Positions 60 to 34,392 of a stretch of 64,000 nucleotides of DNA are shown here, one piece after another. Every line of letters starts with the position of its first letter. Position 1 is the stretch's first letter. The translations under genes were made by a program, and so were the position numbers. Origin of the DNA: Naegleria gruberi (lineage: Eukaryota); assembly GCA_000004985.1 (NCBI GenBank), contig GG738852.1. The stretch is one strand, 5' to 3'. Under the pieces are notes generated by a model. It was not told the origin of the DNA and searched no databases. It worked only from the letters and a program-made list of their open reading frames with translations.

Positions 60-2306
60 TTGGATGATACGGAGAGGGATGCCTTGTCTGCTGATGAAGA
101 TGTCTTTCCAACATTTCGATCAGTAATTATGGGAATGGAGGAGGGGAATGATTTGGAGAGAGCTCCATCTTCCTCACAACATCATTATAGAGATGGATTT
201 GGAAGGAATGATGATGAGGATCATGATTTCAAACTGGGTCACAGTTGGGAAACTAATAAGTGGTTGAGGTGAGTTTACTTGTTTGGAATTTTTAGTTTAA
301 ATTGGTGAATTTACAGAATTGGAGTTGTTGTAACGTTTAGTTTGATGGCAATTCTTCTTTTTGCCTTTCTCATTGTAATAATTACATTAGCGAGTCGATC
401 TGTGCCAACTAATGGAAATAATGTTATCAATAATTCAACATCTTGGGAACCACCAGTTACAGAATCTGGTATTGTAAATTTGATTAGAGCAACAAATGGT
501 GCAACAGCTGCAGACAATGAAATTTGCTCAAATATTGGAGTGAAAATAATGAGAGATTATGGGGGAAATGCTGTGGATGCAGCAATTGCGACAAGTTTTT
601 GTATTGGAATTATGAATCCTTTCAGTGCAGGAATAGGAGGTATGTTTCTCAATTCATTTTCGAAAGTTGAAATATTTTCACATCAATAATACTTGGATGA
701 ATCAGGAGGAGGAATTATGGCAATTTCCAAACCAAGCACAAATGGAGAATCGATTGTGGAATATATTGACTATAGAGAAACAGCACCCTCTGGAGCATCT
801 TGGGATATGTTTTCAAATATGCAACCAGTTGACGGAGCACCTCCTTCTCAGAGAGGTGGAAAAAGTATTGCTGTTCTATCAGAAGTGAAAGGTCTTTATA
901 CTGCCTGGCAAAGGCATGGCTCTATTAGTTGGAATTTACTCGTTGAACCATCAATAGAGTTGGCTAGAAATGGAGTAAAGGCTAATGCAGTGATAGCTGG
1001 TCATTTACAAAAATACAAGAATTGGGTTGTCAGGGAATCATTTGGTTCAGGAATGAAACAAGTTTATGGAACAGCTGATGGAGATGTTAAAAAAGAGAAT
1101 GATTTATTGGTCTATCCTAAACTTGCCCAAACTTTGGAACAAATTGCTATTTATGGAGCTAATGCGTTGTATAGCTTGAATGGCTCTCTGATTCAAGATT
1201 TATTATCAGATTTACAACAAGCTGGAAGTATCGTTACAATGGACGATTTACTCAATTATCAAGTTAAAATTTATTCAACTCTTAACACCAACGAAGAGCA
1301 GCAACCTCTTTCAACCTACTTTATGGGCTACAAGGTATTTGGTCCACGACCAGTAATATCAGGCGGCTCTTGTATCATTTTCATGTTGAACATGTTGGAA
1401 AATTTTGTTGGAGAATTATACTCTTCTGCAATGAACAGTGAAAAGGGAGAATATGAGAGGGGAGAGGAATTTCATCTCTCACAGAAAAAGTATGCTCTCT
1501 TTGTGGAGGCACTCAAGTACGCATTTGCACATAGAGGTGACTTGGCAGATCCCGACTTTATTGACATTAAGGATGTTCTTGGAAAAATGACAAGCAAAGA
1601 TTATAGCTCAAAATTGAGAAATGAATTGGAAAAGGCTCTGAGCAATAATTTAACATTCTCTGATCCTCTTCATTACAAATATCAGAAAGATTCAGGATTT
1701 GTCAGAGATGATCACGGAACTTCTCATCTCAGTGTGTTGGATAAGAATGGAATGGCTGTCTCTGCTACCACAACAGTCAACCTGATTTTTGGAAGTTTTA
1801 TTATTGGTGAGAGGACTGGAATTATATTTAATGATCAAATGGATGACTTTTCCCTTCCAAACACCACCAATTATTTTGGACTGGCTCCTTCACCAAGTAA
1901 TTATATTGCAGCAGGTAAGAGGCCACTCAGCTCCATGTCTCCAATGATTATCCACAAGAATAATCAAATCTATCTTACCATTGGTGCCAGTGGTGGCTCC
2001 AGAATTATATCTTCAGTATTTCAAACTATTTGGAATCATATTGTTGGTGGTTTGGATATTGCCAAGGCGATTCAGTTCCCAAGAATTCACCATCAATGGA
2101 GCCCTGACTCACTCGCAATTGAGCAAGGTATTCCTGATGACCTAGTATCATTTTTGAAGAATTATGTTAATGGAGGATCCATTAGTAGAGTTCAAGGTAA
2201 TCCTGAATTCAGTGTTGGAATAGTTCAAGGAATAGTTAAAAAGGGAGCTAATGAAATTGAGGCGGCTTCAGATATTAGAAAAAAGAGTAAAGCTGCAGGG
2301 TATTAA
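60..2306 (+). CDS. GGT: Gamma-glutamyltranspeptidase (GGT). It is a three-exon gene. Exon 1 runs to 268, with the first in-frame ATG at 129 (the ORF is open from 48). Intron 269..316. Exon 2 is 317..639, encoding a signal-anchor TM and the start of the large subunit. Intron 640..705. Exon 3 is 706..2306.
   Basis: ORFs 60..272, 342..689 and 693..2306 join in frame through GTGAGT..TTTACAG and GTATGT..AATCAG introns. The joined protein has a TM segment (LMAILLFAFLIVIITL) and the GGT signature (GNAVDAAIA, the GIGGGG region, and the catalytic Thr region TSHLSVLDKNGMAVSATTTVN). The spliced reading gives AGIGGGGIMAIS, which matches the GGT consensus around the autoprocessing site. Confidence 0.88.
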
Positions 2307-2377
2307 TCATCTCAATTAACCAACATTGATCAATTAGATTTCTAATTTAATAAAAATCTAATTAGAAAATCAAAAAA

Positions 2378-5300
2378 ATGAAAAGAAATGTAAATAAACC
2401 ACCACTCAAATCATCTCGAGGAAGTTCATTAGATATTGCCATAAGGAAGGGATTATATGGAATGTAGGTGTTGTTCTTTGTGATGAAAGATTAATTTGGA
2501 TAATTTTATCAAATAATTAACTGCACGGAACGAATAATACTATTTTATATTTAAATGGAAGAACTTTGGAACAATTACAAGAGTTTAATGATAATCATGA
2601 TGTTTATAAATTACAAAACGAATATGGAGGAGCCCACGGGTTGGCACAAGCTCTCGGATCAAATATTAAAGAGGGAATTAGTAATTATGAAGTTCAGGAA
2701 AGAGGATTTCATTTCGGAAAACATTTTAGTTTGCAACGAGTGAGTCCAACACGATATAATTCATGGTTCCGATTATTTATTATTACATTTAAGGATTCTT
2801 TCATGAAAACCTTCTTAATTTTGGCAATAATTTCAATCATTCTGGGAGTTATTCTGCCCACAGAACAAAAAGAGAGAAGAAAGGGTTGGATAGAGGGTGT
2901 CTCGCTTCTGATTGGGTGTCTCTTTGTTTGTGTGGCGAATAGTTTTATTGGCTGGCAAAAAAAGAGAAAGTGGAATGAGATTCACACCTTACAAGATGCT
3001 CAATACAGAGTAAAGGTAACACGTGATGGAAAAATTACATCCATTCTTATGGAAAATTTAGTGGTTGGTGACATACTTCATGTAGAACCTGGTGATTTTG
3101 TTACATGTTCTGGAATAGTTGTTGATTCACATAATTTAATTTGTGATGAAAGCTTTTTTACTGCCAACGATACTAACTCACTCAAAGATAAGAATTTGAA
3201 TCCTTTTATTGATCCAGAAACGTTTATTGTAGAAGGTTATGGTAGCATTCTTGTCACTTCAGTAGGAGTTAAACAAATCCTTTTGGATGCTTTACTGAAT
3301 TCTAAAGATGAGGAGTCTTCCTCTCCTTTGGAAACTCGTCTTTTCTCCATAGCTAATAATATTTGGAAAATAGCTATTGGCTTTTCATTGAGTGTTTTTG
3401 CACTCTTGATGGTTGGGTGGACCATTTATAAGATTGGACTCATACAAAACTATCAGGAGGAATGGATTGTTACTGATCTATTGACAGTTCTCAAAATGAT
3501 ATGTTTATGTTTTTCTGTACTCTTTGTTTGTACTCCGAATGGAATTTACAAGATAATTACCACTTCAATGGCCTACTCTTCACGTAAAACTATAAGAGAC
3601 AATATCCTTCTGAGTGTGAACCAGAATATGGATGTGAGTGAAAGGTTGGGATATACTTCACAAGTGATTATTGGAAAGTCGGCCCTTACACAAAAATCAA
3701 TGGAAGTTGTCAAAGCGATCATTGCAGGTGAAAATATTGAAATTGGCACAGGAGATGTTCAAATTGATGAAACTCTTTTACAAATTTTATCGAGTGCCTT
3801 ATCTGTGAATTCGAGGGCTGATATTAGAAATGATGATAATATGCAAATAGAGGAGAGTATTGGGGATTCTTTAGACTGTTCCCTATTGATTTTTCTTCAA
3901 CAAATTGGAGTAGATTATGCACCTATAAGAAACTATTATTTTGAGAATAACAAAATTGTAAAAATGTTTACAAAGAAAAATGGAACCATGACAACTATTG
4001 TGAGGAATAATGGAAATTATATTCTATTTACCAAAGGATGTTATGAATCCATTCTTGAAAATTCATCTGGAGAATTGTTGAAAGAAGGAGTTGTTGCTTC
4101 ATTCACTGATAACAGAAAAGAAGAGCTCCGAGAAACTATGAGCAAACACATTCAAGAAGGATATACAATAATTGCAATAGCTTACAGAGAAATTGAAGAC
4201 ACAAACATTCTCTTTGAGAATAATTTAACCATTGATGACGACTGCTACAGTAATTTAGTATTAATATCATTCCTGATTATTCTTAACCCATTAACCACAG
4301 GAATTAAGGAATCCATATCTCAATTGAGAGACGCTGGTATTTTTGTGAGGTTGGTTACTGGAGAAAGTGTTTCATCCGCAAAGAGACTTGCAACTGAATG
4401 TGGAATTATGACTGAAGATGGTACATGTCTAGAAGGCCCTTCGTTTTTCAATCTGAACGAAGATGAGCTCATTAAAACTCTTCCTAATCTGCAAGTGGTT
4501 GCCAGAGCAAATAATGCACACAAGTACCATCTCATTTCTGAATTACAGAAACAGGGGGAGTTTGTCACCATCCTCTCTTCATCTCACAAAGATGTCCCCT
4601 CCATAAGAAAAGCAGATATTGGAGCTGTTTGTGGAATTAAAGGATCACATTGGAGCAAATACTACGCCGATTTGTTTATTACAGATGATAGACTGAGTTC
4701 TCTTGTGAGAGCCATCGCTTGGGGAAGAGCTTTGTTTTACAATATTCAAAAGTATCTAGTTTTTCACATGACTATCAATATTGTAGTCATGACATTGACT
4801 GCAGTTACCTCTATAACTGCCTATCTTTTGAGCCCAGTTCAGTTTCCACCCTTCAATCCAGTCCAATTGTTATTTGTACATATTATCATGGACATTTTTG
4901 CAGCTCTTTCTCTGGCTTCTGATCCTCCTCATAAGGAAACTATGAAACAAGATCCAATCAAACCCAAATCAAGTATTGTAAGAAAGAATATGAAATTTCA
5001 CATTGTTGGTCAAATTCTCTATCAGTTAGTGGTATTGATGATTTTGCACTATAGTGGAATTTATATTTGTATCAACAATAAGGATGGCGACAAGTTGTGT
5101 CTGAGTGATCCTGGAACCTCCTTCAAATCATCCAAATCATCCCAAGTTGTGGAAACAATGGTATTCAATACTTTCATATTTTGTCAAATATTTAATGAGA
5201 TTAATTGTAGAAGAATTGATAATGGGATGAATCTATTGAAGAATATTCACCATTCATTATTATTTGTGGCAATCTTCATTCTTAATATTGCATTTCAAGT

Positions 5301-5523
5301 ATTCTTAGTTCAGTTGAGTTTGGCAAGTTTAGTGCCATTGACTTGGTACCAGTGGTTAGTTTGTGTTGCCATTGGTTTTATTTGCGTACCTTTTGGTTAT
5401 GTGTTACGATTTTTATCTTCAAGAATAATTACATCAAACAAATTGAAAAAGGGAATGAACAAGATATTTAAAAGAATGGTTCGTAGTGTGCCTAGTCGAA
5501 ATCATAACCTTAACATCACATGA
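2378..5523 (+). CDS. PMCA-like P-type (type IIB-like) cation ATPase homologue with degenerate catalytic motifs; candidate pseudo-ATPase. Exon 1 is 2378..2463 (MKRNVNKPPLKSSRGSSLDIAIRKGLYG), intron 2464..2561 (GTAGGT..GGAAG), exon 2 is 2562..5523.
   Basis: There is a long ORF (985 aa from 2566). After adding the upstream exon, the N-terminus (GITLEQLQEF...YGGAHGLAQAL...) aligns with the PMCA N-terminal cytosolic segment. TM1-TM2, the A-domain region (VVGDILHVEPGDFVTCSGIVVDSHNLICDESFFTAND) and about 10 predicted TM helices are retained. The canonical motifs are all replaced: DKTGTLT becomes IGKSALT (no phospho-Asp), TGES becomes TAND, MVTGDN becomes LVTGES, and GDGxNDxP becomes SSSHKDVP. Confidence 0.8.
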
Positions 5524-5593: not shown

Positions 5594-8500
5594 ATGAAAA
5601 ACAAAAACAAAAAAATGCCAAAAAACAAGGAAGTAGCAACTTCGGAGGAAAATGATCAACAAGATGAAGTCATGGCCGATTCTATAGAGGAGGAAACATC
5701 CAACACTAGTCGTAAATCGGATCAATCTAGAAATTCTGATGAATTGATGAAAATTAGTAAAGGCTTGATAGATTTGTCTAACAAGACAAATAATTCAGCA
5801 AATGAACAATTACTAAAATACATACAAGAAAATAAGTTGGTCGATTCTCTAAAAGAAATCAAGTCAATCATGACGCAATATTTACTCAAATCAAATTTTG
5901 ATCACTTATATCAATTTATGAAAGCCTATTTTCAAAGTTGTAGACCAAATGTCATATCAGAGAGTGTTTTCAATACTGATGTGAATAGCACTAGTTCCGA
6001 TAAGAGTGAATCTACTAATCAATTTAAACTCTCACGTGAGAGGGCCTTCATGCTGAAATTACTCACATGTTGGATGTTTGAAGGAAGATTAGAAGGAAGA
6101 GTGGCTAAGAATGGTTTAGGTATCATATTCGAAGAATTGGATTATTTACCAGATGCAATGCTTGTCTCATTAATTCAAGCAATTTATACATTGTTCAAAG
6201 ATGGTGGACAAGCATCAGATGTAGTTTCACCCCTCTTTGGAAATAATTCAAATTTTGATAGCATGGAAAATAATGCAGGACTAGTATTGGATATTTGGAC
6301 ACAGTGTATTTCTGCAGTAATGGCCAAGGATGAAATTGAAATCAATTCCAAAACAAAAAAGAAGAAGAAATCGGAAGAATACAAGACTGGTATTATCAAG
6401 GACATGTGTAAATGTGATTGGTCCCAAAAAGTATTGGCATTTGCCAATGCTTTCAAGGATATGCCACTCAATGACAATGAATTAGAACTAGTGGTAGACA
6501 AATTTTTCAAATACTTGAACAAGATGAACTTGAACGATTGTGCTCCACTCATTTACCAACTATTGATTCTTTCTTCAAGAGGAAAGAGACAGAAAATCTT
6601 ACTAGGAATTATTGCATATTTTGATAACTTGGAAAAAGAAAAGAGGCGAAACTCACTAACATCTACTGAAGATTCAGTTAACCAATTAGAAGGAACAGTT
6701 TTACACTTTATCGATTATGCGACCAAACAGAACCAAGAATTAGCCACAGAAATGTTAAAAATAATGAAGAATGAATCAAGTGGAGGACTAAATACCTTTA
6801 AAGCTTCCTTCTTACTAATCATTTCAGGTTTGATGAATTTTGAGGAAAAGGCGTTCAAGGTTTTAAAAACTTTTGTAGATGACGATTACAAAAATTCCAC
6901 CAAAATTCACCTCTATCTCTCTGAGGAAGAAGACCAGTTATTATCCTTCAGATACAAATCTAGTAACGTAATTTTAGATACAGTGAAAAAATGTGGAAGA
7001 GGAAGAGATTTCATGATCAAGTCTGTTGTTGACTTTGCATGCTATCTTTTAGATGCTAAAAAGGTTAAAGCCTCTAGTGATGACAATTTTGTTTTAACTA
7101 AGGTGGCAATGCACTCACATGACTTGGGATTGGAAATATTAGGCAAAATGTTCGAATTGAGTCAATTTGTTAGATCCGATATTCTCTCCAGAATTTTTAA
7201 TCGTGTGGTGACAAATTATGGAAACACTGAAAAATATATTGACCTCTTGAGAAATATATCAAAAAATCAAACCAATTGCCTTCTTGACCATATTTCCAAA
7301 CTCAAAGAAACCATTGAATACCTATCAACTATGCCTACAGATATATCAAATGCACTTCTCACTGCCGTGCAACCACTTTATAAGAATAGCCAAGAATTCC
7401 AAGATCAAGTAGTATTGGTTTTGCGTAAGTCAATGTATAGCAGAGAATTGGATTCAAGACTTGTTGCCTTGAACGGATTTTTACAAATTTTATTAGCTTC
7501 TGGAGAATTGGAAGAATCAAATGTTGGATCAAGTAGTGCTAGCAGCTCTTCCAGTAGTATTGCACAACACAGAGCAAGCACAATAGATTTGGAAATTATT
7601 GGATTTTTAAGAAGATGTCTCGGTCAGCAAATGATCGTTAGAAAGACGCTCTATGGTGGATTGTGTGACCTTGTCACAAAGAAGCCAGAATTGAGAAAGG
7701 AAATTACTCCAATCATGATTGACCATCTTAAAAAGTACATGTCCATGGAAGATGAAGACAAGCCAGAGGTATTTTTCGATAGTTGTATTGGTACCAAAAC
7801 AATGACAATTGCTGAACCTCTTCCTTCTCTCTTTTATTATTTAGTCCATGTAGCAGATGATGAAAGGGATAAGGACGCCTACAACATGTTGATTGGTATT
7901 ATGAATTATTTATTTTCCAAATCATTGAGTGAGCTCTCCATTGATAAACCTTTCGATGATACTAATGAAGGAAAAAAGAATAGACTTGTTGCCACCATAT
8001 ATGCTGGATGTATTGAGGCATTATTTGAGTTTACATTGTTAATTCTCTCCAAAGATGAGGACAATGGTAGTCAAGCAATGGAAGTATTGAATACTTTTTG
8101 GGCTAACTATTCCAAAGTAATAGAAAATCTTAATAAGAAACCAGCTTCAACAAGCAAGAAAAAGACATCCACCACTGAAAAGTTTGATCCAACTTCTTTC
8201 CTACCAGAATTATCCATTCAATTTTGCACATCAGCTATTAGCGCTGCTTCTGAATCTGTGAAAGATGTAGAAGTATCAGAGAATGCTATTGCTGATAGTA
8301 AATTCCATGCCTACCTACTCAAGTTAATTGCAAAGAAAACAAAGGCTGCCAAGAAGATAAATCAAAAACTTCCAGATGATGGCTTGCTAGGTATTGTAAA
8401 GGGTCTCTATATTTTCTTGGTAAGACTGACCAATAAGGGCTCATCAGCCTCTACTGACGACCCGAAAAAGAAGGATAAGACCACAACACAAACTTCAGAA

Positions 8501-9724
8501 GTGTTTGAAGAATTAATACGTATGAAAACTCAAAATAGTTCTCCAGCTGAAATAATCGATTTTTATGAGGGCTTTATTCGATTGTCTAAAAGTCAAACCT
8601 CCTCTAACAATGATAGTAGAATTAGTGACATTATGCAAACTCTTCAGAAAAATATTAGTAGTATTCTCAAACAAAAATCATTTGAGACAGCCACTTCATT
8701 TGTTAGAATTCTCACCAGCTTGGTTCATTTTATTGAGGGCAAGTGTGAAATTTTAGAAAATTCTGGACACTACTCTTGGATAATTGATATTTGTAAAGGA
8801 AATGAGTTTGGTCATAATGATTTAGGCCATGCTCTTATCAATCACCTTGTAACATTAGCTTGTATTTTTATGGATGTTCCAAAGCTCCAAGAACTTGCCT
8901 CAGACGTGTTGGGTAAAGTTGGCCATATTGAAGATGCTGGTGAAAGAACTGTTACCAACATGTTAGCCATCAATTGTCCATCAGAAACTGCAGATGTATT
9001 AATTTCTAGAATTGGATTAATCTTAGATGATCTGGATTGGAAATATCAACGATTAGAAACACTCAAGGACACATTAAGTGATAATTATGAGGACACAAAG
9101 AAGAATATTTTCCATCAAACTACTCTCTTTATTGATACTTTGGAGCATTTAATTTGTGCCAAATTGGAAATGGAAATATCTGAAAAGCTCTTTTCTCCAC
9201 TTATCAAATTCTATACAATGTTAGCTAAGTTTACAGATACCTATCTTTCCCTTCCTAAAGATTCTGGAATTGAGTTATGTGAAGAATATTGTGAATTGGT
9301 GGATAGATCTGGTGATTTTACCACCACTTGTTACTCATTCATCAATTATCATAATGAGGAAGAAAAGTCCACCTCAATGAAAATTGTTAGAGAGGCAAGA
9401 AATATTCCAGAACTCATCTTTAGAATGGAAACCTCAGAGCAAAAACTCATTCTCCTCTCCAAACATATCAAACAAAACTTGCTCAAGAACTATAAGAGAT
9501 CCCAAGTTAGAGCTTTTACCATTGACAATCAAAAGGTTATGGAAGCAGCCGAAGAAAAGAAGAAGCGTAAAAAGAAAGATGATGAAGAGGAAGAGCAAAT
9601 TAAGGAAGAATCAGAGAATGAACAAGAGGAAGAAGAAAAGAGCAGTAAAAAGAAAAAGAAAGCTTCCAAAAAGAGAAAATCACCAACCAGTGAAAAGTCA
9701 ACCACAAAGAAAAAGAAGAAATAA
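5594..9724 (+). CDS. FANCI: Fanconi anaemia group I protein (FANCI) orthologue. It is 1376 aa with an alpha-solenoid body, an acidic/EDGE-like region and a lysine-rich NLS tail.
   Basis: Single ORF. Ours: NDNELELVVDKFFKYLNKMNLNDCAPLIYQLLILSSRGKRQKILLGIIAYF. Human FANCI: [51 protein letters not shown]. The C-terminal blocks TTCYSFINYHN and IPELIF, plus an acidic stretch followed by KKKRK, also match FANCI. The human sequence is recalled from memory. Confidence 0.72.
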   Translation: MKNKNKKMPKNKEVATSEENDQQDEVMADSIEEETSNTSRKSDQSRNSDELMKISKGLIDLSNKTNNSANEQLLKYIQENKLVDSLKEIKSIMTQYLLKSNFDHLYQFMKAYFQSCRPNVISESVFNTDVNSTSSDKSESTNQFKLSRERAFMLKLLTCWMFEGRLEGRVAKNGLGIIFEELDYLPDAMLVSLIQAIYTLFKDGGQASDVVSPLFGNNSNFDSMENNAGLVLDIWTQCISAVMAKDEIEINSKTKKKKKSEEYKTGIIKDMCKCDWSQKVLAFANAFKDMPLNDNELELVVDKFFKYLNKMNLNDCAPLIYQLLILSSRGKRQKILLGIIAYFDNLEKEKRRNSLTSTEDSVNQLEGTVLHFIDYATKQNQELATEMLKIMKNESSGGLNTFKASFLLIISGLMNFEEKAFKVLKTFVDDDYKNSTKIHLYLSEEEDQLLSFRYKSSNVILDTVKKCGRGRDFMIKSVVDFACYLLDAKKVKASSDDNFVLTKVAMHSHDLGLEILGKMFELSQFVRSDILSRIFNRVVTNYGNTEKYIDLLRNISKNQTNCLLDHISKLKETIEYLSTMPTDISNALLTAVQPLYKNSQEFQDQVVLVLRKSMYSRELDSRLVALNGFLQILLASGELEESNVGSSSASSSSSSIAQHRASTIDLEIIGFLRRCLGQQMIVRKTLYGGLCDLVTKKPELRKEITPIMIDHLKKYMSMEDEDKPEVFFDSCIGTKTMTIAEPLPSLFYYLVHVADDERDKDAYNMLIGIMNYLFSKSLSELSIDKPFDDTNEGKKNRLVATIYAGCIEALFEFTLLILSKDEDNGSQAMEVLNTFWANYSKVIENLNKKPASTSKKKTSTTEKFDPTSFLPELSIQFCTSAISAASESVKDVEVSENAIADSKFHAYLLKLIAKKTKAAKKINQKLPDDGLLGIVKGLYIFLVRLTNKGSSASTDDPKKKDKTTTQTSEVFEELIRMKTQNSSPAEIIDFYEGFIRLSKSQTSSNNDSRISDIMQTLQKNISSILKQKSFETATSFVRILTSLVHFIEGKCEILENSGHYSWIIDICKGNEFGHNDLGHALINHLVTLACIFMDVPKLQELASDVLGKVGHIEDAGERTVTNMLAINCPSETADVLISRIGLILDDLDWKYQRLETLKDTLSDNYEDTKKNIFHQTTLFIDTLEHLICAKLEMEISEKLFSPLIKFYTMLAKFTDTYLSLPKDSGIELCEEYCELVDRSGDFTTTCYSFINYHNEEEKSTSMKIVREARNIPELIFRMETSEQKLILLSKHIKQNLLKNYKRSQVRAFTIDNQKVMEAAEEKKKRKKKDDEEEEQIKEESENEQEEEEKSSKKKKKASKKRKSPTSEKSTTKKKKK

Positions 9725-21048: not shown

Positions 21049-24000
21049 TTAATTAAAGTAAATACAATTATCACACATTTTCTTTTCTGGTTGATTCTTT
21101 GAAATTTCCTCATCCATACATTTTGTACATCTTTTGAGAACTGATCCAACCCGATTGACCTTTCTATCTTCATACAATTCTTCTAGACACAACTTGCAGG
21201 CATACATTTTCATTTGAGAATTACCTTTCAAGAAAACTTCCCTCAACTCAGATCTTGGTTGTAAACAATAATCACAAACCATTACTTTGGATTTGCTTGT
21301 TTCATGAAGTTGTGAATTATCTTTTTGATTACATTGAATGCACATGTATTTGGAACAACTCTTACACCAAAATCTTGCAATTCCACCACAATCACCACAT
21401 AATAGATATTTAGGACCTTGATTTTCTTTTTTAGGTTGTGGTTTTGGAAGAGGTTTCTTTCTTACTATGTTTCTATTCGAATGAGTAGGAGTCTCCTCTT
21501 CAATGATGTCACTATTTGAAACTCTTTCAGTTTTCATTTGATTATTTCTTGAAGATGATTCAGAGGATGATTGTGGAAGGGATGGAAGTGGTTTGTTGCC
21601 AATAACATTTCTTCCATTCAATCGATTTCTTGAGGCTCCAATATTTTGTAATTTCACATCAACTTGATTATTGAACGATTCTTCTTTGAATCTTGCTAAG
21701 GTTGGACGAGAAGGTAATGTTTTTTTTTCTGGAATATTTCTAACGGCGTTTTCAACAATGGTAATTCGTGCTTCTCTTTTTGGAACATTGGATTCATTTC
21801 TCTTTTTGGACAATGGCTTGGATTCAGAATCGGATGAGTCATTGTTACTGGAATCATCTTCATAGCTATCATCTTCCTCACTTCCACTTTCATCGCTTGT
21901 TTCCTCATTATTCGAATCACTTTCGTCTGTTTCACTTCCACTCCTTTCGCTACTATTGTTCTCACTATCCAACAACTCATCTGCATCATCAAATCCCTTC
22001 TCCCTCAATGGTGGTGGTAGGAATTGTTTCAAATACTCCTCCATATCTTTCTTCTCCTTCAAATATTGTTTTACCTTCTCCTTTCTCTTTCGATTAATTC
22101 TCCTTGCCACACAAAACCTAATCACCACCAACAAGACAACATATCCAATAGCCACAACACCTGAAACAATTGGAAACCACAAATAATTCGGATAGGTCAA
22201 AAACCATTCCACAAACGGATTGAAAACCTGATACAAAACAGATGCCTTCTTCTTTTCTTCATTTTCTTTCAGATTTTCTTGTTTCTTTGCAAGATTTTCA
22301 TTAAAAACTTTTTGTTTTTCAATAAAAGACAATTGAGCTTCAGAATAGGTCCTTTCATAATAGTAGGAAATAATTGGACCAGGTAATCTTTGAAAATTTG
22401 GACCATAGGAGAAGGTTTTCACATGGAGTGGAGGTCCAAATATGTATAATTGCTTTTCATCGTATTCGAGACAGGTCATGTTGGATTCTTCTCTTCCATA
22501 ACAGAGAATGACAATACTTGTCTTGGTTTTGTAGGGTTGTAAAAGTCGAAGTTGGAAGGGAGAATCGAATTGGTGATCGGTTGGTTTGGGTTTGATGAGT
22601 GGTTGTAAATCTCTTTCTCTAATGTGAAATGTTATTTTTGAGAGAAGTCCAGCTCTGTGTCCATCACAATCGGTGGACATGGACAAATCATAGTCACCGG
22701 TAATATTGGCTTGATAGGTAAATTGTTTCAATTCTTCCAGATTCATTGCATAACTCCACACAACTTTGGTCTGATTGAAAACTAGCTTAATATTGTAAAC
22801 ATAATCCATTGGACTTGTTTCATTATTATGAAATTCATCGAATTGAAATTCTATAGGACTAAATGAAATCTTCATCTCCCCGACTGGATAATACATTTGT
22901 GAGAGGATGGTCGATTCCAATTCCTTATAACTTCCCATCGAATTGAAAAAGTGAAATTCAGCACTTGGTGGCGAGAGTGAAGATTTCGCCAAGACACACG
23001 TTTCGTATTTGGTACTGTAAATATAATCAGGGAGGCATTGACAATCCTTGATGGATTTTCTTGGAAGGAGACTTCCTGTAGTTGTTTCCATTGGACATGC
23101 TTGACATTTACTTGTGTCCTTATTGAAGAATCGACCGAATGGACATAGACACGTGGATGTCGATGGCTCCTGAATCATTTTAGAATCTGGACATGATAAA
23201 GTCAAGCATTTGCCGTTTCCATAGAGAACTGAAGTTTCGAATGAGCAAGTTTGGGGTGTGAAATAGTTTTGATTGAGTATTTGATTTCCAAGTAGGGAAT
23301 TGTAGAGTTTGAAATTGGAAATCATTCCTGGGAAGAACATGGTTGGAGTTGGGCTGAGAAAGTTGACTAAACCTCCAATAACTAAAGAGCTAGATGAAGA
23401 TTGACTAAGGGAAAAGTAACAAGTACCAATTACTGAATTATCTCTGAAAAGAGTTAGTATCTTGTTTAGTTCATCATATTGTAAAGTAAATAAATGCCAA
23501 TCTGTATCGTGGGCGAAACTTGTCGAAATGAGAAATGTTTCTGTTGAATTAATCTTTTTAACTTGCATATAAACTGACTTGTAGGGAGATGCTGCTGAGA
23601 ATGAATCTAAATTCATTTGGAAAATCCAATCAGAGAATGAAACTATTCCATAGCCAATTTTGTAATTCTTCAAAATAAAATCAAATTGATTGAAATCGGC
23701 AAGTTTCAGATGCATTGAAATTGTGAAAGAAGATTCGAATGAATGTTTCGTATAGACATTTGGAATGGATAAGAGTTTTTTCAGGGCCACCTGACATGAA
23801 TTTTCTGAGCCTTGATTTCCACTTGAAATTATTGTTAAATGTTCTTGTTGTAAACTTTCGTCTAAAATACCAAATGAATTTCCTTTCAAGGTACATGGAG
23901 CCAACACTTCACCTCCAGAATCTTTCGAATAATATCCAATAGGAATAGGTTGACATGAATTTCCAACTCTATACCTTTTGCCATCTTTACATTTGAAAGC

Positions 24001-25668
24001 ACAATTTTCAGAACTTTCTCCCGATTGAGTATAAATCACCTGATTAATTGGTCCATTATTACAGACATACAATAATCCATCACCTGGCGAATAATTTCCA
24101 GGACTACATAATTTACAATTTGGTCCATATCTTCCCTTCTCACAGTTATAAGTTGTGGTTGTCCTTGAAGTTCTCAATTTACTTGTTTTACCATTGATTG
24201 TGAAAGAGTTTGTTGATGGTTGGTTAATGAGGATTGAATTGATGGATCTTGAAGAGGATTCTGTTGTTATCAAGCTGTTAAAGATGTTCTTGTAATCTCC
24301 TTCAATATTCGAATCTCTTGTCCATGAAAGTGAGTTAATTGCTTGTATGACATCAAATGTTGAAGTTTGTAATTGAGAATCAGAGTGAAAGATTGAGCCG
24401 GGTTTGTTTTTCAATGTGGGATCATAGATTTGAACTTCAATTGCATCTGGAGTGAGTACAAGTGTTTTACTTGCGTTTTGTGAATTACTTGATAGGGAAT
24501 AGCCAAAAGAAATGGTCAATTGTGGATCAGGCATTGTGAAATAAGAAATTGTTTCTTGATAAAATTCATTCAAGAAATCAAATTCAGATTCTTGAATAAT
24601 TGCGTCACCCTGAATGAATAGAGTTGCTAATTGCTCTGTCACTTGTCCATTGAGTGTGAATTTGTTTTCAACAATTTCCATCAGTTGACTAACAATAGAG
24701 TTGTGTCTATCGATAAATTCAATGGATCCACAAAACGAAGCTACCAAATCAAATGTCTTTCCTCCAGCACCTTCACTAATCACATCATTTTTCAAAGTAT
24801 GAAAACATGACTTGGAATTATATGTGAAAGTTAATGTTGAATTGACCAGGTTATATCTTCCAGAATTGATAAATGTTTTCAACTTGGAGAATGCCAAACT
24901 CGTATCTTCATTCAAATTATAATAAATGTCAAATTGATTCACATATTGATTCAATGCATCTCTATATCTTTTTACAATTTCATTGAAAATTGTTTGTAAA
25001 CTTCTCAATTCCAATTTGAATGCAAGAACTTTATCAGCAAACATGTCAGCATCCATTCCAGCATCTCTTCCCCAAATTACAATAGTTTCTAAATGTTGAG
25101 ATAGGATGAATAATCTCTTTTCCTGAAGCAACATTTGTATCAAGTCTGATTTTAAAGTTGAGACAAGAGACAAGTGATAGAACATATTTCTTGTAGGGAG
25201 GAGAGTCAGCAAACTATTACTTGCGCAATTGGTAAAGAAAGTTCCCATTGGATATATACAAGAATCGGTATTCTGCAAATTGAGATAACATCTATAGGTG
25301 GATGACCAATGTCCAATTAAATTTCCATTGGCATCCCTTAGATAGCCAACTAAATGTTCGAGATTTGCCAATTTAATTCGATCATAGAATTGAGAGGGTG
25401 TTCCACAAACATAGGTTGCTCCAGATTGATAACTGGTCGATGAATAGGGAACAGTTGGGGTGATATTCTTCATAAGTTGTGGAATACTCAAATCAATAGA
25501 TCTGGCCTCAAGTTGTGAGAGGAGAAGATTTGTAATCTTGTTGATGATTTTATTTTCAACAGTGGAGAGGGAGTTACCATCGTCCTGGAATGAAAATGTA
25601 CAGAGAAGAAGTGTTACTAAGAGAAGGAGTGTGAGTGATGGTGTTGAAAGGTAAATTGTATTTTTCAT
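21049..25668 (-). CDS. Large type-I membrane protein. It has a signal peptide (MKNTIYLSTPSLTLLLLVTLLLCTFS), an ectodomain of about 1150 aa with Cys-rich EGF/laminin-EGF-like modules, a single TM (FPIVSGVVAIGYVVLLVVIRFCV), a highly acidic Ser/Asp/Glu cytoplasmic stretch and two C-terminal B-box-like zinc fingers.
   Basis: Uninterrupted 4.6-kb ORF. The Cys-rich modules are GRYGPNCKLCSPGNYSPGDGLLYVCNN...CAFKC and CLTLSCPDS...CLCPFGRFFNKDTSKCQACP. The C-terminal zinc fingers are CGDCGGIARFWCKSCSKYMCIQCNQKDNSQLH and CDYC...CKLC...CTKC...CDNC. The ATG at 25668..25666 starts the hydrophobic signal. Confidence 0.7.
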   Translation of the reverse strand: MKNTIYLSTPSLTLLLLVTLLLCTFSFQDDGNSLSTVENKIINKITNLLLSQLEARSIDLSIPQLMKNITPTVPYSSTSYQSGATYVCGTPSQFYDRIKLANLEHLVGYLRDANGNLIGHWSSTYRCYLNLQNTDSCIYPMGTFFTNCASNSLLTLLPTRNMFYHLSLVSTLKSDLIQMLLQEKRLFILSQHLETIVIWGRDAGMDADMFADKVLAFKLELRSLQTIFNEIVKRYRDALNQYVNQFDIYYNLNEDTSLAFSKLKTFINSGRYNLVNSTLTFTYNSKSCFHTLKNDVISEGAGGKTFDLVASFCGSIEFIDRHNSIVSQLMEIVENKFTLNGQVTEQLATLFIQGDAIIQESEFDFLNEFYQETISYFTMPDPQLTISFGYSLSSNSQNASKTLVLTPDAIEVQIYDPTLKNKPGSIFHSDSQLQTSTFDVIQAINSLSWTRDSNIEGDYKNIFNSLITTESSSRSINSILINQPSTNSFTINGKTSKLRTSRTTTTYNCEKGRYGPNCKLCSPGNYSPGDGLLYVCNNGPINQVIYTQSGESSENCAFKCKDGKRYRVGNSCQPIPIGYYSKDSGGEVLAPCTLKGNSFGILDESLQQEHLTIISSGNQGSENSCQVALKKLLSIPNVYTKHSFESSFTISMHLKLADFNQFDFILKNYKIGYGIVSFSDWIFQMNLDSFSAASPYKSVYMQVKKINSTETFLISTSFAHDTDWHLFTLQYDELNKILTLFRDNSVIGTCYFSLSQSSSSSLVIGGLVNFLSPTPTMFFPGMISNFKLYNSLLGNQILNQNYFTPQTCSFETSVLYGNGKCLTLSCPDSKMIQEPSTSTCLCPFGRFFNKDTSKCQACPMETTTGSLLPRKSIKDCQCLPDYIYSTKYETCVLAKSSLSPPSAEFHFFNSMGSYKELESTILSQMYYPVGEMKISFSPIEFQFDEFHNNETSPMDYVYNIKLVFNQTKVVWSYAMNLEELKQFTYQANITGDYDLSMSTDCDGHRAGLLSKITFHIRERDLQPLIKPKPTDHQFDSPFQLRLLQPYKTKTSIVILCYGREESNMTCLEYDEKQLYIFGPPLHVKTFSYGPNFQRLPGPIISYYYERTYSEAQLSFIEKQKVFNENLAKKQENLKENEEKKKASVLYQVFNPFVEWFLTYPNYLWFPIVSGVVAIGYVVLLVVIRFCVARRINRKRKEKVKQYLKEKKDMEEYLKQFLPPPLREKGFDDADELLDSENNSSERSGSETDESDSNNEETSDESGSEEDDSYEDDSSNNDSSDSESKPLSKKRNESNVPKREARITIVENAVRNIPEKKTLPSRPTLARFKEESFNNQVDVKLQNIGASRNRLNGRNVIGNKPLPSLPQSSSESSSRNNQMKTERVSNSDIIEEETPTHSNRNIVRKKPLPKPQPKKENQGPKYLLCGDCGGIARFWCKSCSKYMCIQCNQKDNSQLHETSKSKVMVCDYCLQPRSELREVFLKGNSQMKMYACKLCLEELYEDRKVNRVGSVLKRCTKCMDEEISKNQPEKKMCDNCIYFN

Positions 25669-25810
25669 TTTTTTTAATCTAAGCAATTAAGGTAAATTCC
25701 TAATTTGGATGAAGAGTTTGCATATAATTTTTGTTGGATTCTTAATAATATGGAAATATTCTAACGATAAAATTAATAATAGTGGTCTTAGTTTATTTAT
25801 ATACAAAGAA

Positions 25811-31453: not shown

Positions 31454-34392
31454 TTAAATATCTGGTGAGTAATAAATTGCATCAGATTTTGTGAGAGGAA
31501 TATGAAGCTCTGTTGGGGAGGATGACAATGGCACCTCTTCAACAGATTTTGGAATAATTGTGTGTGATTGCAAATCTTCTTGTTCTTGTTCTGTGAGGTT
31601 TGTTCCATCTTTGAATACCTTTTGTGTGAGTAAATGGAGAGCATACACATACACTTCATCTCTGGCTCTCTTTCCCCAAACAAAGTCATTATGCTTAAAA
31701 CCAATAATCTTTTTTGAATATACAAGTGAATATTGAAGCCCCTCCATTAAGAATTCCTCAATATCTGAAGGATTAGCCAAGTAATCAAGAGTGCCATAGA
31801 AAACAGCAATTGGTACATCAATTATCTTTTTAAGATCGTACTTTTCAACTTTTGGGGGTGTAGAATTCTTGGCAGAGCTTGCTGGATAAGTAAATGATTG
31901 GAATGATTCAGACTTGATCAATTGACCCCAGTGAATTAAATTTTGGAGAGAAGTTGGAGAAGGTTCATATTTTGATAGGATTGGTAAAATTGCATGATCA
32001 ATATCACAATCTGACAAAACTGTCCATGCTTCATTGAATAAACTCTGAGTAAGCTTTGGTAAAACAGATCTACTGACTGTTTTGTTTCAACAATGAATTA
32101 TTATGGAGCAATGTTAAAAATTACAATCTAAAAGAAAAACTTACGTTGTGTAGCACCAATTTCTCCAATACCTATTCCTTCCAGGGTTGAGAATAACATC
32201 TCCGTATTCATCTTGGTAACCATGGCTAACAATTTGCTTTGTTGATGCTTGAGACTACACACAGGTGCCAAAGCAATGAACATGTCCAATTTCTTTTGTA
32301 ACTCTGGGAATAATGTCAAGGCAACAAACGCTTGTGTAGTTCCTTGAGAATGGCCAACATAGGATAATTTCTCTACTTGAGTGAACTTGAGTACGTATTT
32401 AATTTGGGCTGGGAAATCAAATTTTGCCATTTCAGTAAATGAGAATTTCCAAAATTCCTTGTCTGTAAAGCTATTCCATGAAATGTGTTTTCTACTAAAT
32501 TGAACGCCTCTATTATTTCCAAGCCAAACATCAAAACCTGCATCTGCGAGCATGAATGCAAAGCTATATTTTTGGCCTCCAATAAGCCAAGCAGAGCTAG
32601 AATTGAAAACGCCATGTTGTAAGAATACTACAGGTCTCTTCTTTTTCTTTCTTCTTTCCAATTCGTCCTCTAATAAAATTTCATCCTTGAAAAGCATGAG
32701 GGAATTCAAATTTCCATGAGGAATTCTGTGAATTTGCAACACGTATCCATCACTGGTAACGGTTTCGTGTTTTTCAATTGGATATCCTTGTTGTCTTACA
32801 AAATCAAAAATTGATTCTTGCTCTTGGTCGTGAGACGTCAACTTAATTTTGTCTGATTTCTTATTTGGTTGTGACTCTTTAAATTTCTGTGGTGCACTCA
32901 TAAGAATATCATGTGCAAGTTTGGTACTGTTATTTGGTGCTTGAATCAGTTCCCAGTCACTAAGGTTGCTTCTTTCATCTTCCATAATTAAGAGAGAATC
33001 TCTCAATTCCATTCCACTCAATCCATTGGATACTTCGTTTAATAGGGTCTTTTCTCGTTCACCTTTTTTAATTCTATCATCAACCTCAAGTAGGAGTGCA
33101 GTTGGCATGTGTTGATGAATAAGTTTACAAAAGTCTTTGTTTGACTCTCCATACTCTTCTCTTGCAGTTTGGTAGGCTACTCTTCCACTACCATCTCTCA
33201 ACTTGAGAACACGATCCAAAATTTCCAAACTCTTGTACTGATCGATGAGCATTCTACAAATTTCCGTATTGCCTGTTTGGGCACAGAGATGGAATGGGGT
33301 TCTTCCCTCCTTATCTGCATGGAGGAGCATGTCTATCATTTTATCCTCATCAACTAGTAAGAGCAAATGCGGCAATAACTCAATCGAACCAGATTTGACA
33401 CAAATGTGAAAAACATTTTCATTGAAAATGGTTGTCAAATAGAGGTCACTTCCAAGATCCACCAAAGTTTGAATAGTTTCTTGGGATGATTTTGCCAATA
33501 TGGCACAAAATAGTGGGGTATACTTTTCATCATTCAATTCGTCAATATTAATCTTCATTTCCATTTCCTTCTCAGGTTCCTTCTTTTTAAAGAGAGAAAG
33601 GAAGGATACTTTCTCTGGACTAGAAGGAATTACTTTTTTAATTTCATCAGTCCATGTGGCCATCTTGTCATAATAATATGACAAGTATTCTGATGAAATT
33701 GATTTTTTTTGTACAGATTCTTCCTTCTTGACAAGTGCATCTGAAACAGTTTCAAGAGTTGAAGCAGAAACCACTTCGACAGGCATAGCCACTTGTTTAA
33801 ACTTGAGAATATGATACTCATCCTTCAAGAGTGTTAAAATACATTGTATAATTTGATAATTTCCAGTTTTACAAGCCAAATGCAAAATGGTATCATTATT
33901 CCTCGATGTTTTGATGAGTAACATTTTACGAATAACAGAATCAGGAATATAATTATTTCCCTCTGTCAAATAATTGATCATTTCCAAATCTTGTCTCATC
34001 ACTGAAACGTGAATAATAGAACATTTTCCAAGTATTGTATAATTAATTTTCTTATTCGTTAATAACAATTGTAAAATTGATTTAAACGATTCACTATTAG
34101 TAGTTTCCTCTTTCAATGACTGATGCAATTTCCTCGAGAGTAAATCATCAAGCAATTTAATATTTCCCTGTTTTACAGCATTATTCAGAGTCATACCAAA
34201 TCGATGATCATCCTTGATATACTCATCTAATGCTGTTCCGATATTATTTACATCTTCCTCTCCTCCCAATAGAAGAGTTTCATCAGTCATTCTATCATCC
34301 TCATCAACTACCAATTCATCAGTAGTATTTGTTGTATTGGTGGTATTGTTATTAGTTCTTCTCCAAGAAGGGATCATTCTCTTAAAAAACAA
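31454..34392 (-). CDS. Ankyrin-repeat domain fused to an acid (gastric/lysosomal-type) lipase alpha/beta-hydrolase domain. Exon 1 is 34392..32145, intron 32144..32077 (68 nt, GTAAGT..AACAG), exon 2 is 32076..31454.
   Basis: The N-terminal half has at least 6 ANK repeats (e.g. TILHLACKTGNYQIIQCIL, TPLFCAILAKSSQETIQTLVDLGSD, RTPFHLCAQTGNTEICRMLID). The C-terminal half has VVFLQHGVFNSSSAWL, the nucleophile elbow GHSQGTT, and in exon 2 the Asp/His region GTLDYLANPSD...HNDFVWG. The join is phase-1 compatible (c|tc = Leu). Confidence 0.8.

What the first reader, a model, noticed from the sequence alone, without database searches (positions are those of the whole stretch)
2378..5523. PMCA-type P-type ATPase homologue with every catalytic motif mutated but an intact 1013-aa reading frame (candidate pseudo-pump)
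The protein aligns end to end with plasma-membrane Ca2+-ATPases; the N-terminus, including the GITLxEL block supplied by a small 5' exon, the A-domain and the roughly 10 TM helices are retained. All four canonical motifs are substituted: the phospho-aspartate DKTGTLT is IGKSALT (near 3670-3690), the A-domain TGES is TAND (near 3150-3170), MVTGDN is LVTGES, and GDGxNDxP is SSSHKDVP. Loss of the phosphorylated Asp and the dephosphorylation loop makes E1-E2 cycling impossible. The ORF is nonetheless uninterrupted and spliced correctly, which argues for a retained non-catalytic role (channel-like, regulatory or scaffold) rather than a dead pseudogene. Non-catalytic P-type ATPase homologues are rare and poorly described.
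Basis: partly seen in the sequence, partly recalled or inferred. Interest (0 to 1): 0.8.

Follow-up and report, generated by a model that had tools for sequence, protein, structure and literature searches.

The report
Dead calcium-pump homologue conserved in Naegleria
This Naegleria gruberi gene encodes a full-length copy of a plasma-membrane calcium pump that has lost the residues needed to use ATP, yet natural selection has kept it intact in at least four Naegleria-type amoebae, including the brain-eating N. fowleri, so it must do some job other than pumping.

Summary
Window 2378-5523 (+) is a two-exon gene encoding 1015 aa, not 1013. It aligns end to end with PMCA-type (P2B) Ca2+-ATPases. 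TGES is TAND, DKTGTLT is GKS-ALT (Asp to Gly plus a one-residue deletion), TGDN is TGES and GDGTND is SSSHKD. The N-domain ATP-binding Lys and Arg and the M4/M6 Ca2+ ligands are also changed.

The window is Naegleria gruberi. Orthologues exist in N. lovaniensis, N. fowleri and one uncultured relative. All four have intact frames and the same intron position and phase. All four lack TGES, the Mg2+-binding Asp of GDGxND and the ATP-binding Lys. Three still keep the phospho-Asp.

dN/dS is 0.077 overall and 0.008 in M5-M6, so this is not a pseudogene. N. gruberi also has at least three canonical PMCAs. The family nests inside heterolobosean PMCAs on a long stem, which points to duplication followed by a change of function.

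AlphaFold gives a confident full PMCA fold. Function is untested. My best guess is a non-cycling membrane protein that acts through a rebuilt M4-M5-M6 core. It is unnamed in databases and I found no paper on it. Degenerate PMCA-like sequences also occur sporadically in other lineages.

The parts
2378..2463 (+). Exon 1. It runs from the ATG through Gly28 plus two bases of the Ile29 codon and encodes MKRNVNKPPLKSSRGSSLDIAIRKGLYG.
   Evidence: Splicing restores the frame. N. lovaniensis, N. fowleri and L003 have a homologous exon with SLDIA(I/V)xKGxYG.
2464..2561 (+). Intron 1, 98 nt, GTAGGT...AG, phase 2.
   Evidence: The same position and phase occur in N. lovaniensis (94 nt), N. fowleri (95 nt) and L003 (39 nt).
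2562..5523 (+). Exon 2, running to the TGA stop. It encodes residues 29-1015: ten TM helices plus the A, N and P domains.
   Evidence: ORF 2566-5523; Pfam domains; end-to-end alignment to ACA8 and PMCA1; AlphaFold pLDDT 83 and pTM 0.77; TM-score 0.80-0.84 to mouse PMCA E1 states.
3160..3171 (+). The A-domain dephosphorylation loop. T229-A-N-D232 replaces TGE(S/T).
   Evidence: The orthologues have VGQQ, FGQQ and YSET, so the loop is lost in all four and is now free to vary.
3535..3552 (+). The M4 ion-site segment. P354-N-G-I-Y-K359 replaces PEGLPL. The Ca2+-ligand Glu position is Asn, the second Pro is Tyr, and a Lys is new.
   Evidence: Y358 and K359 are invariant in the family. Position 355 is N, E, E or K.
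3670..3690 (+). The phosphorylation motif. I399-G400-K-S-A-L-T405 replaces DKTGTLT, with Asp changed to Gly and a one-residue deletion.
   Evidence: The orthologues have DKS-VLT (two of them) and DTD-ALC. The deletion is shared by all four.
3973..3984 (+). The N-domain FxxxRK(S/T)M segment. K500-K-N-G503, where Gly503 replaces the ATP-binding Lys (SERCA K492).
   Evidence: The position is Gly in all four orthologues.
4165..4167 (+). Thr564 at the position of the ATP beta-phosphate-binding Arg (SERCA R560).
   Evidence: The orthologues have Y, I and K.
4357..4368 (+). P-domain motif II. T628-G-E-S631 replaces TGDN.
   Evidence: The orthologues have TSDN (two of them) and TGEN.
4576..4599 (+). 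P-domain motif IV. S701-S-S-H-K-D-V-P708 replaces GDGTNDAP. The Mg2+-ligand Asp (SERCA D703) is Ser702.
   Evidence: Ser702 is present in all four orthologues.
4711..4920 (+). M5-M6 (residues 746-815), the most constrained part of the protein. It carries the family-specific H764 and H802 next to the retained N768 and D806.
   Evidence: 71% of columns are invariant across four species and dN/dS is 0.008. Q764H, N802H and T807I are fixed in all four.
5099..5146 (+). A 48-nt stretch that the public N. gruberi gene model removes as an in-frame intron. I treat it as coding.
   Evidence: P0001 reads GDKLFVETM where the ORF reads GDKLCLSDPGTSFKSSKSSQVVETM. The K(L/I)CLxDP part is conserved in the orthologues.

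Best explanation
The gene encodes a lineage-specific pseudo-pump.

Origin (inferred from a tree, pairwise scores and shared sequence signatures): a PMCA-type (P2B) Ca2+-ATPase of the heterolobosean lineage duplicated. Its closest catalytic relatives are N. gruberi P0279 and Willaertia P0260.

Loss of chemistry (shown by alignment): on a long stem branch one copy lost the phosphoryl-transfer machinery. The TGES loop, the Mg2+-binding Asp of GDGxND, one residue of DKTGT and two ATP-binding side chains of the N domain are gone in all four orthologues. The N. gruberi protein has also lost the phospho-Asp itself. The canonical Ca2+ site was rebuilt: the M4 Glu is no longer conserved, M6 Asn became His, and a Lys and a Tyr are new in M4.

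Maintenance (shown): since then the whole ten-helix, three-domain protein has been under purifying selection, strongest in M5-M6.

Consequence (inferred from established P-type ATPase and HAD enzymology): the N. gruberi protein cannot run the ATP-driven E1-E2 cycle.

Mechanism I commit to (inference, about 0.35): it works without ATP turnover through its remodelled membrane core. That core would bind, sense or passively pass a cation or proton at a new Cys/Tyr/Lys/His/His/Asn/Asp site, with the folded cytoplasmic headpiece kept as a platform or gate. The general claim, that this is a selection-maintained and non-catalytic PMCA paralogue, I rate at about 0.8. The confidence value given for this explanation refers to that general claim.
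For: - Motif losses appear in register against solved PMCAs and against 41 canonical PMCAs. PF00702 scores below its cutoff.
- Orthologues exist in N. lovaniensis, N. fowleri (my model is identical to XP_044565637) and a metagenomic relative. Frames are intact and the intron is conserved.
- dN/dS between N. lovaniensis and N. fowleri is 0.077 at dS 0.67. By domain it ranges from 0.008 to 0.15.
- Of 231 columns that are at least 90% conserved in canonical PMCAs, 96 are kept in all four members and 80 are changed in all four. Of those 80, 42 are fixed to the same new residue.
- N. gruberi has three canonical PMCAs with intact motifs.
- In an NJ tree the family has 100% bootstrap support. It nests in heterolobosean PMCAs as sister to the P0260+P0279 pair at 82%. 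That pair also gives the best non-family phmmer scores, and heterolobosean signatures such as NWYQW and NNEWN are shared.
- AlphaFold gives pLDDT 83 and ten TM helices with the M4 break retained. The TM-score to PMCA is 0.80-0.84.
Against: - There is no expression, localisation or biochemical data. I found no paper that names these accessions.
- Three of the four orthologues keep the phospho-Asp, the TGD Thr, the D707 equivalent and the KGxxE Lys, and two of those three (N. lovaniensis and N. fowleri) also keep the K684 equivalent, which is Leu in L003. Residual phosphorylation in those species is therefore not excluded.
- The membrane-core mechanism rests only on conservation patterns. No coordinates were available to test a K359-D806 contact.
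- The M4 Glu position varies (N, E, E, K), which argues against a conserved ion ligand at that position.
- The cytoplasmic domains are also well constrained (omega 0.06-0.11). A headpiece-based scaffold role fits the data about equally well.
- The protein evolves faster than its catalytic paralogue: 57% against 81% identity between N. gruberi and N. lovaniensis.
Confidence: 0.78

Rival explanations
1. It is a scaffold or regulatory pseudoenzyme that acts through the cytoplasmic headpiece. The dead pump would bind other proteins, for example canonical PMCAs or signalling or cytoskeletal partners at the plasma membrane or contractile vacuole, and tune their activity or placement. The membrane domain would serve only as an anchor.
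For: The A, N and P domains remain under purifying selection (omega 0.06-0.11) and are predicted with confidence. A basic C-terminal tail, SNK(F/L)K(K/R)GM, is conserved. Many pseudoenzymes work this way (general knowledge).
Against: A mere anchor would not need near-invariant M5-M6 (omega 0.008) or family-invariant new polar residues in the helix core. No partner is known. Genomic context says nothing, because the neighbours differ between N. gruberi and N. lovaniensis or N. fowleri.
Confidence: 0.3
2. It is still an ATP-driven pump, or a phosphorylation-driven switch, with unconventional chemistry. This would apply at least in the species that keep the Asp.
For: N. lovaniensis, N. fowleri and L003 keep Asp at the phosphorylation position, together with the TGD Thr and the D707 equivalent. 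N. lovaniensis and N. fowleri also keep the K684 equivalent. The TMEM94/ERMA dispute shows that catalytic status inferred from motifs alone can be contested.
Against: All four members lack the TGES Glu, the D703-equivalent Mg2+ ligand, the K492-equivalent and R560-equivalent ATP ligands, and one residue of the DKTGT loop. N. gruberi has Gly at the nucleophile position. The former catalytic positions differ freely among the orthologues, as expected for sites no longer in use.
Confidence: 0.07
3. It is a recently inactivated pseudogene that happens still to have an open frame.
For: The catalytic motifs are destroyed. The public N. gruberi model is partial and unnamed.
Against: Frames are intact in four lineages with synonymous sites saturated between most pairs. 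dN/dS is 0.077 overall and 0.008 in M5-M6. The splice sites are conserved, and 42 substitutions are fixed in the whole family.
Confidence: 0.02

Closest known systems
Plasma-membrane Ca2+-ATPases (P2B: animal PMCA1-4, plant ACA8; closest of all the heterolobosean PMCAs, N. gruberi P0279 and Willaertia magna P0260)
   Same: Homology runs end to end (E 3.8e-112 to ACA8). The domain order and ten TM helices are the same, the predicted fold has TM-score 0.80-0.84 to mouse PMCA, and the family nests phylogenetically inside heterolobosean PMCAs.
   Different: All four signature motifs, two ATP-binding residues and two of the three Ca2+ site-II ligands are replaced. Identity to the nearest catalytic paralogue is 35-36%.
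TMEM94/ERMA, a human protein with a P-type-ATPase-like fold whose ATPase status is disputed
   Same: It has a P-type-like architecture with A-, P- and N-like domains but no TGES. A structural study saw no nucleotide at the proposed phosphorylation site and no phosphorylation cycle (PMC12134183).
   Different: TMEM94 is only remotely related to classical pumps and keeps a candidate Asp. A 2026 paper argues that it is a real Mg2+-ATPase (PMC13322241). The Naegleria protein is an unmistakable and recent PMCA derivative whose N. gruberi copy lacks the Asp.
P4-ATPase-like domains fused to guanylate cyclases in alveolates (Toxoplasma GC, Plasmodium GC-alpha and GC-beta, ciliate P4GC)
   Same: A P-type ATPase module has been co-opted for something other than classical ion pumping, in a protist (PMC6592433, PMC7858053, PMC13466520).
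   Different: Those belong to the P4 (flippase) class and are fused to a cyclase. In PfGC-alpha the ATPase activity is reported to be essential. The Naegleria protein is a stand-alone P2B derivative with no added domain.
Other degenerate PMCA-like sequences found here (Acrasis kona 'PAT1' KAL0488204.1, Cyclocybe aegerita CAA7263095.1, plant ACA13-like models, metagenome clusters P0080 and P0203)
   Same: They have PMCA homology with one or more signature motifs broken, including the phospho-Asp in several.
   Different: They are not related to the Naegleria family: Acrasis PAT1 is 27% identical and falls elsewhere in the tree. Most keep TGDN and PEGLP. I did not check whether they are conserved, expressed or simply gene-model errors.

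Membership tests
P-type ATPase (catalytic definition) | Phosphorylatable Asp in DKTGT(L/I)T | tested here: not met
   N. gruberi has I-G400-K-S-A-L-T, with Gly (GGA) at the Asp position and a one-residue deletion. The orthologues have DKS-VLT or DTD-ALC: the Asp is kept, but the motif is shortened in all.
P-type ATPase (catalytic definition) | A-domain TGE(S/T) dephosphorylation loop | tested here: not met
   It is TAND in N. gruberi and VGQQ, FGQQ and YSET in the orthologues.
P-type ATPase (catalytic definition) | P-domain motifs TGD(N) and GDGxNDxP, which hold the Mg2+ and phosphate ligands | tested here: not met
   TGDN is TGES and GDGTNDAP is SSSHKDVP. The D703 equivalent is Ser in all four members. 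The D707 equivalent is kept in all four, and the K684 equivalent in N. gruberi, N. lovaniensis and N. fowleri but not L003. PF00702 scores 16.9 bits against a cutoff of 26.4.
P-type ATPase (catalytic definition) | N-domain ATP-binding residues (SERCA F487, K492, K515, R560) | tested here: not met
   The K492 equivalent is Gly in all four. The R560 equivalent is T, Y, I or K. The F487 equivalent is kept in three of four, and the KGxxE Lys is kept.
P-type ATPase (catalytic definition) | Formation of an acyl-phosphate intermediate and vanadate-sensitive ATP hydrolysis | not testable with these tools
   This needs biochemistry on purified protein.
P-type ATPase superfamily (by fold and descent) | Ten-helix membrane domain with A, P and N domains in canonical order | tested here: met
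   There are four Pfam domains above cutoff. The alignment to ACA8 runs end to end. The AlphaFold model has pLDDT 83 and ten TM helices. Foldseek gives TM-score 0.80-0.84 to PMCA E1 structures.
P2B / PMCA subfamily | Closest relatives are PMCAs, with phylogenetic placement inside the PMCA clade | tested here: met
   The best PDB hits are ACA8, PMCA1 and PMCA2. The NJ tree nests the family in heterolobosean PMCAs with 82-90% bootstrap. The best non-family phmmer hits are P0260 and P0279. The tree is NJ only; no ML tree was possible.
P2B / PMCA subfamily | Single Ca2+ site: Glu in M4 (PEGLP), Asn and Asp in M6 (NxxxD) | tested here: not met
   The M4 Glu position is N, E, E or K. PEGLP is P-x-G-I-Y. 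The M6 Asn is His in all four, and the M6 Asp is kept.
P2B / PMCA subfamily | Calmodulin-binding autoinhibitory tail | tested here: inconclusive
   A short conserved basic C-tail, SNK(F/L)K(K/R)GM, exists. However, heterolobosean canonical PMCAs show no clear counterpart to the amoebozoan W...VxxAFR motif, so no homology could be argued.
Pseudoenzyme (conserved, catalytically inactive homologue of an enzyme) | Catalytic residues lost while the gene stays under purifying selection in several species | tested here: met
   The motif losses are listed above. dN/dS is 0.077, and 0.008-0.15 by domain. There are four intact orthologues.
Pseudoenzyme (conserved, catalytically inactive homologue of an enzyme) | Expressed as a stable protein | not testable with these tools
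   No transcript or proteome data were reachable, and no paper names the accessions.
Pseudogene | Frame disruptions, lost splice sites or neutral evolution (dN/dS near 1) | tested here: not met
   The frame is uninterrupted, GT-AG is conserved in four taxa, and dN/dS is far below 1.

The most novel reading that the evidence does not exclude
A P-type ATPase has been converted in nature into an ATP-independent membrane device. It would be a cation or proton channel, uniporter or 'transceptor' built around a new His/His/Asp/Lys/Tyr/Cys site in M4-M6, with the dead A, N and P headpiece acting as a gate or signalling platform. Naegleria, including the pathogen N. fowleri, needs it.
Probability: 0.2. 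Interest if true: 0.85.

Novelty: new variant of a known kind. Interest (0 to 1): 0.6.

Why it matters
P-type ATPases are among the best understood membrane enzymes, yet almost nothing is written about members that have given up catalysis and are still kept by selection. This case is clean for four reasons:
- Its origin from a PMCA is obvious and fairly recent.
- The active paralogues sit in the same genome for comparison.
- Four orthologues show which positions became free and which new residues became fixed.
- One lineage has lost even the phospho-Asp.

It gives a natural experiment on what the P-type fold can do without ATP. That bears on arguments such as the one over TMEM94/ERMA and on pump-to-channel conversion.

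The protein is present in N. fowleri and has no close counterpart outside Naegleria-like amoebae. It could therefore also be a lineage-specific marker or target, if it proves important.

Tried and rejected
I used the 985-aa exon-2 ORF instead.
- Searches for 'pseudoenzyme' plus P-type ATPase, for catalytically inactive pumps, for degenerate DKTGT, for Naegleria plus PMCA or P-type ATPase, and for the protein accessions found nothing on this family.
- I considered a retained C-terminal calmodulin-binding domain and dropped it. Heterolobosean catalytic PMCAs have short tails without the amoebozoan W...AFR motif, so no homology can be argued.
- I considered an analogy between the M4 C352-T-P354 and the CPC metal site of P1B pumps and rejected it. 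The Cys sits two residues before the Pro, not next to it.
- I looked for a shared intron with the catalytic paralogue. P0279 has no contig on record and the Willaertia P0260 gene is intronless, so this was uninformative.
- Synteny was uninformative. The neighbours are GGT and FANCI in N. gruberi, but Ank, Cupin and WD40 genes in N. lovaniensis and N. fowleri.
- I checked whether the nearest catalytic relatives are intermediates. All 114 proteins have intact DKTGT, TGD, GDGxND and PEGLP.
- The predicted E1-like state of the model was not used as evidence, because AlphaFold's choice of state is not informative.
Full report
**What is there.** The window is AT-rich eukaryotic DNA (34.7% GC). The finding covers a two-exon gene on the + strand. 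Exon 1 is 2378-2463, a 98-nt GTAGGT...AG intron is 2464-2561, and exon 2 is 2562-5523. The splice falls inside the Ile codon of G-I-T-L, so exon 1 supplies the first 28 residues and not the whole GITLxEL block.

Pfam finds Cation_ATPase_N, E1-E2_ATPase, Cation_ATPase and Cation_ATPase_C. The HAD hydrolase model PF00702, which covers the catalytic P domain, scores 16.9 bits against a cutoff of 26.4.

**Motif check.** phmmer against all PDB chains aligns residues 23-991 to Arabidopsis ACA8 (8qmp, E 3.8e-112). PMCA1 and PMCA2 are next best.

| Canonical motif | N. gruberi sequence | Window coordinates |
|---|---|---|
| TGES | T229-A-N-D | 3160-3171 |
| DKTGTLT | G400-K-S-(gap)-A-L-T | 3670-3690 |
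| TGDN | T628-G-E-S | 4357-4368 |
| GDGTNDAP | S701-S-S-H-K-D-V-P | 4576-4599 |

Gly400 is GGA, two base changes from the GAC or GAT of the orthologues, so it is not a single-base error.

I found further losses:
- The ATP-binding Lys (SERCA K492) is Gly503.
- The Arg that binds the ATP beta-phosphate (SERCA R560) is Thr564.
- PEGLP in M4 is PNGIY followed by a new Lys359.
- The M6 Asn of the Ca2+ site is His802, while Asp806 is kept.

Assigning roles to these residues rests on established SERCA, PMCA and HAD-fold enzymology, not on anything measured here.

**Organism and orthologues.** The closest database protein is N. gruberi XP_002680790.1, 'predicted protein, partial'. It is identical to the window's protein apart from gene-model differences. 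Orthologues are:
- N. lovaniensis XP_044554831.1, 56-57% identical.
- N. fowleri XP_044565637.1. My spliced model from a Logan contig matches it with 0 mismatches.
- One protein on a JGI metagenome contig (L003), 52% identical.

All four have uninterrupted frames. All have the first intron at the same codon position and phase, with lengths of 98, 94, 95 and 39 nt.

All four lack TGES, the D703-equivalent Asp, the K492-equivalent Lys and one residue of the DKTGT loop. N. lovaniensis, N. fowleri and L003 still have Asp at the phosphorylation position (DKS-VLT, DKS-VLT, DTD-ALC). The former catalytic positions differ freely among the species: TAND, VGQQ, FGQQ and YSET at one site, and SSSHKD, ASSYKD and ASRPGD at another. 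That is what one expects of sites no longer in use.

**Selection.** Nei-Gojobori estimates on codon alignments give dN/dS 0.077 for N. lovaniensis against N. fowleri (dS 0.67, not saturated). The more distant pairs give 0.14-0.18 where an estimate could be computed; there synonymous sites are saturated, and for the two pairs of L003 with N. lovaniensis and N. fowleri dS could not be estimated at all.

Every domain is constrained. M5-M6 gives 0.008 with 71% of columns invariant across the four species. M8-M10 gives 0.047 and M1-M2 gives 0.050. The A, N and P domains give 0.07-0.11, and the M7-M8 loop gives 0.15.

The protein does evolve faster than a catalytic PMCA over the same species pair, at 57% against 81% identity.

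Of 231 alignment columns that are at least 90% conserved in 41 canonical PMCAs, 96 are kept in all four members and 80 are changed in all four. Of those 80, 42 are fixed to the same new residue. Examples are A352C, P358Y and L359K in M4, Q764H in M5, and N802H and T807I in M6. This is the pattern of a change of function followed by conservation, not of decay.

**Origin.** N. gruberi has at least three catalytic PMCAs (P0268, P0277, P0279) with DKTGTLT, GDGTND and PEGLP intact. Willaertia, Acrasis, Percolomonas and N. lovaniensis have them too.

An NJ tree with 200 bootstraps gives the dead-pump clade 100% support. It places the clade inside the heterolobosean PMCAs, sister to Willaertia P0260 plus N. 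gruberi P0279 (82%), within a clade that includes an Acrasis PMCA (90%), and on a long stem. The same two proteins and their metagenomic relatives are the best non-family phmmer hits, at 704 and 592 bits against at least 1077 bits inside the family. Heterolobosean signatures such as NWYQW, NNEWN and IHKS are shared.

An exhaustive HMMER pass over 1.84 billion cluster representatives found only one representative of the family, and everything else scored 438 bits or less. None of the 114 nearest catalytic relatives has a broken motif. The family is therefore sharply bounded and, as far as public data show, confined to Naegleria-like amoebae. The tree is distance-based; no ML program was available.

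**Structure.** AlphaFold2 with a 45-sequence alignment gives mean pLDDT 83 and pTM 0.77. It predicts ten long membrane helices, including the break in M4 at C352-T353 next to Pro354. Foldseek matches mouse PMCA E1-state structures at TM-score 0.80-0.84. The whole pump architecture is therefore retained. I had no coordinates, so side-chain contacts could not be examined.

**How it most likely works.**
- Shown: the chemistry-bearing residues are gone, the fold and frame are kept, and selection is strong and strongest in the membrane core.
- Inferred from P-type ATPase enzymology: the N. gruberi protein cannot be phosphorylated at the canonical site. No family member can catalyse TGES-dependent dephosphorylation or bind Mg-ATP in the normal way.
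- My best mechanistic guess (about 0.35): the selected function sits in the rebuilt M4-M5-M6 core. There, family-invariant Cys352, Tyr358, Lys359, His764 and His802 join the retained Asn768 and Asp806. The protein would bind, sense or passively pass a cation or proton without ATP turnover.
- Main rival (about 0.3): a scaffold or regulatory role through the still-constrained headpiece.
- Residual unconventional phosphorylation in the Asp-bearing species is possible but unlikely (about 0.07).
- A pseudogene is excluded for practical purposes.

**Comparison with what is known.** By descent and fold this is a P2B (PMCA) family member. By the catalytic definition of a P-type ATPase it fails every motif test.

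The nearest precedents for P-type folds used without classical pumping are TMEM94/ERMA and the P4-ATPase modules of alveolate guanylate cyclases. The status of TMEM94/ERMA is disputed (PMC12134183 against PMC13322241). The guanylate cyclase modules are described in PMC6592433, PMC7858053 and PMC13466520. Neither is a PMCA derivative.

I found no paper on a conserved dead PMCA, and none naming these accessions. Degenerate PMCA-like sequences do turn up independently elsewhere: Acrasis kona PAT1, Cyclocybe aegerita, plant ACA13-like models and two metagenome clusters. The phenomenon may therefore be less rare than the literature suggests, but I did not test whether those are conserved or are artefacts.

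**Verdict.** This is a new variant of a known kind: a selection-maintained, lineage-specific pseudo-pump. It is interesting to transporter and pseudoenzyme specialists, and it comes with a ready set of comparisons and mutants to test. Its function is unknown and no expression evidence was obtainable here. I score interest at 0.6.

Noticed in passing
window 2378-2463 and 5099-5146: The public N. gruberi model of this gene (XP_002680790.1, 'partial') lacks exon 1. It also removes a 48-nt in-frame 'intron' (GTCTGA...AG). The sequence removed (CLSDPGTSFKSSKSSQ) includes a K(L/I)CLxDP segment that is conserved as coding in three orthologues, so the annotated intron is probably wrong.
   Followed up: partly
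proteins P0187, P0220, P0080, P0203, P0029, P0035, P0037 (not in the window): Independent PMCA-like proteins with broken signature motifs exist elsewhere. Examples are Acrasis kona 'PAT1' (TGTD, DKTGV, GDDARD), Cyclocybe aegerita (SNKATF, GKNAND), two metagenome clusters (TMKTGT; CGKSGT) and plant ACA13-like models (TIKTGT, TNKTGT, CHKTGI). I did not determine whether they are conserved pseudo-pumps, pseudogenes or model errors.
   Followed up: partly
window 3676-3678 compared with L001, L002 and L003: The phospho-Asp codon is kept in N. lovaniensis, N. fowleri and L003 but is Gly in N. gruberi, although the rest of the catalytic site was lost in their common ancestor. Why the Asp persisted so long is unexplained.
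   Followed up: partly
window 693-2306 (+): This is a gamma-glutamyltranspeptidase gene (PF01019, E 3.8e-122) directly upstream. The listed ORF starts at a TTG, so the true start is probably upstream or in another exon.
   Followed up: no
window 5594-9724 (+): A single 1376-aa ORF carries all the FANCI solenoid and helical domains. It is a Fanconi-anaemia FANCI homologue 70 bases downstream of the pseudo-pump's stop codon.
   Followed up: no
window 21049-25686 (-), 41541-44870 (-), 46631-48589 (+), 56250-58175 (+): These are long ORFs (641-1545 aa) with no Pfam match at E 1e-5 or better.
   Followed up: no
window 37056-38672 (-), 51350-54472 (-), 32128-34392 (-): These are a TenA/ThiD (HMP-P kinase) fusion, a SUV3-type RNA helicase, and an ankyrin-repeat protein fused to an alpha/beta-hydrolase lipase domain. 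All look like ordinary eukaryotic genes.
   Followed up: no
L004 (Willaertia magna JBEGDK010000031.1) 1501-4512: The closest catalytic relative, Willaertia PMCA P0260, is intronless. No Willaertia member of the pseudo-pump family appeared in any search, although the tree places the duplication before the Naegleria-Willaertia split. This points to loss in Willaertia, a missed annotation, or slight misplacement in the tree.
   Followed up: partly
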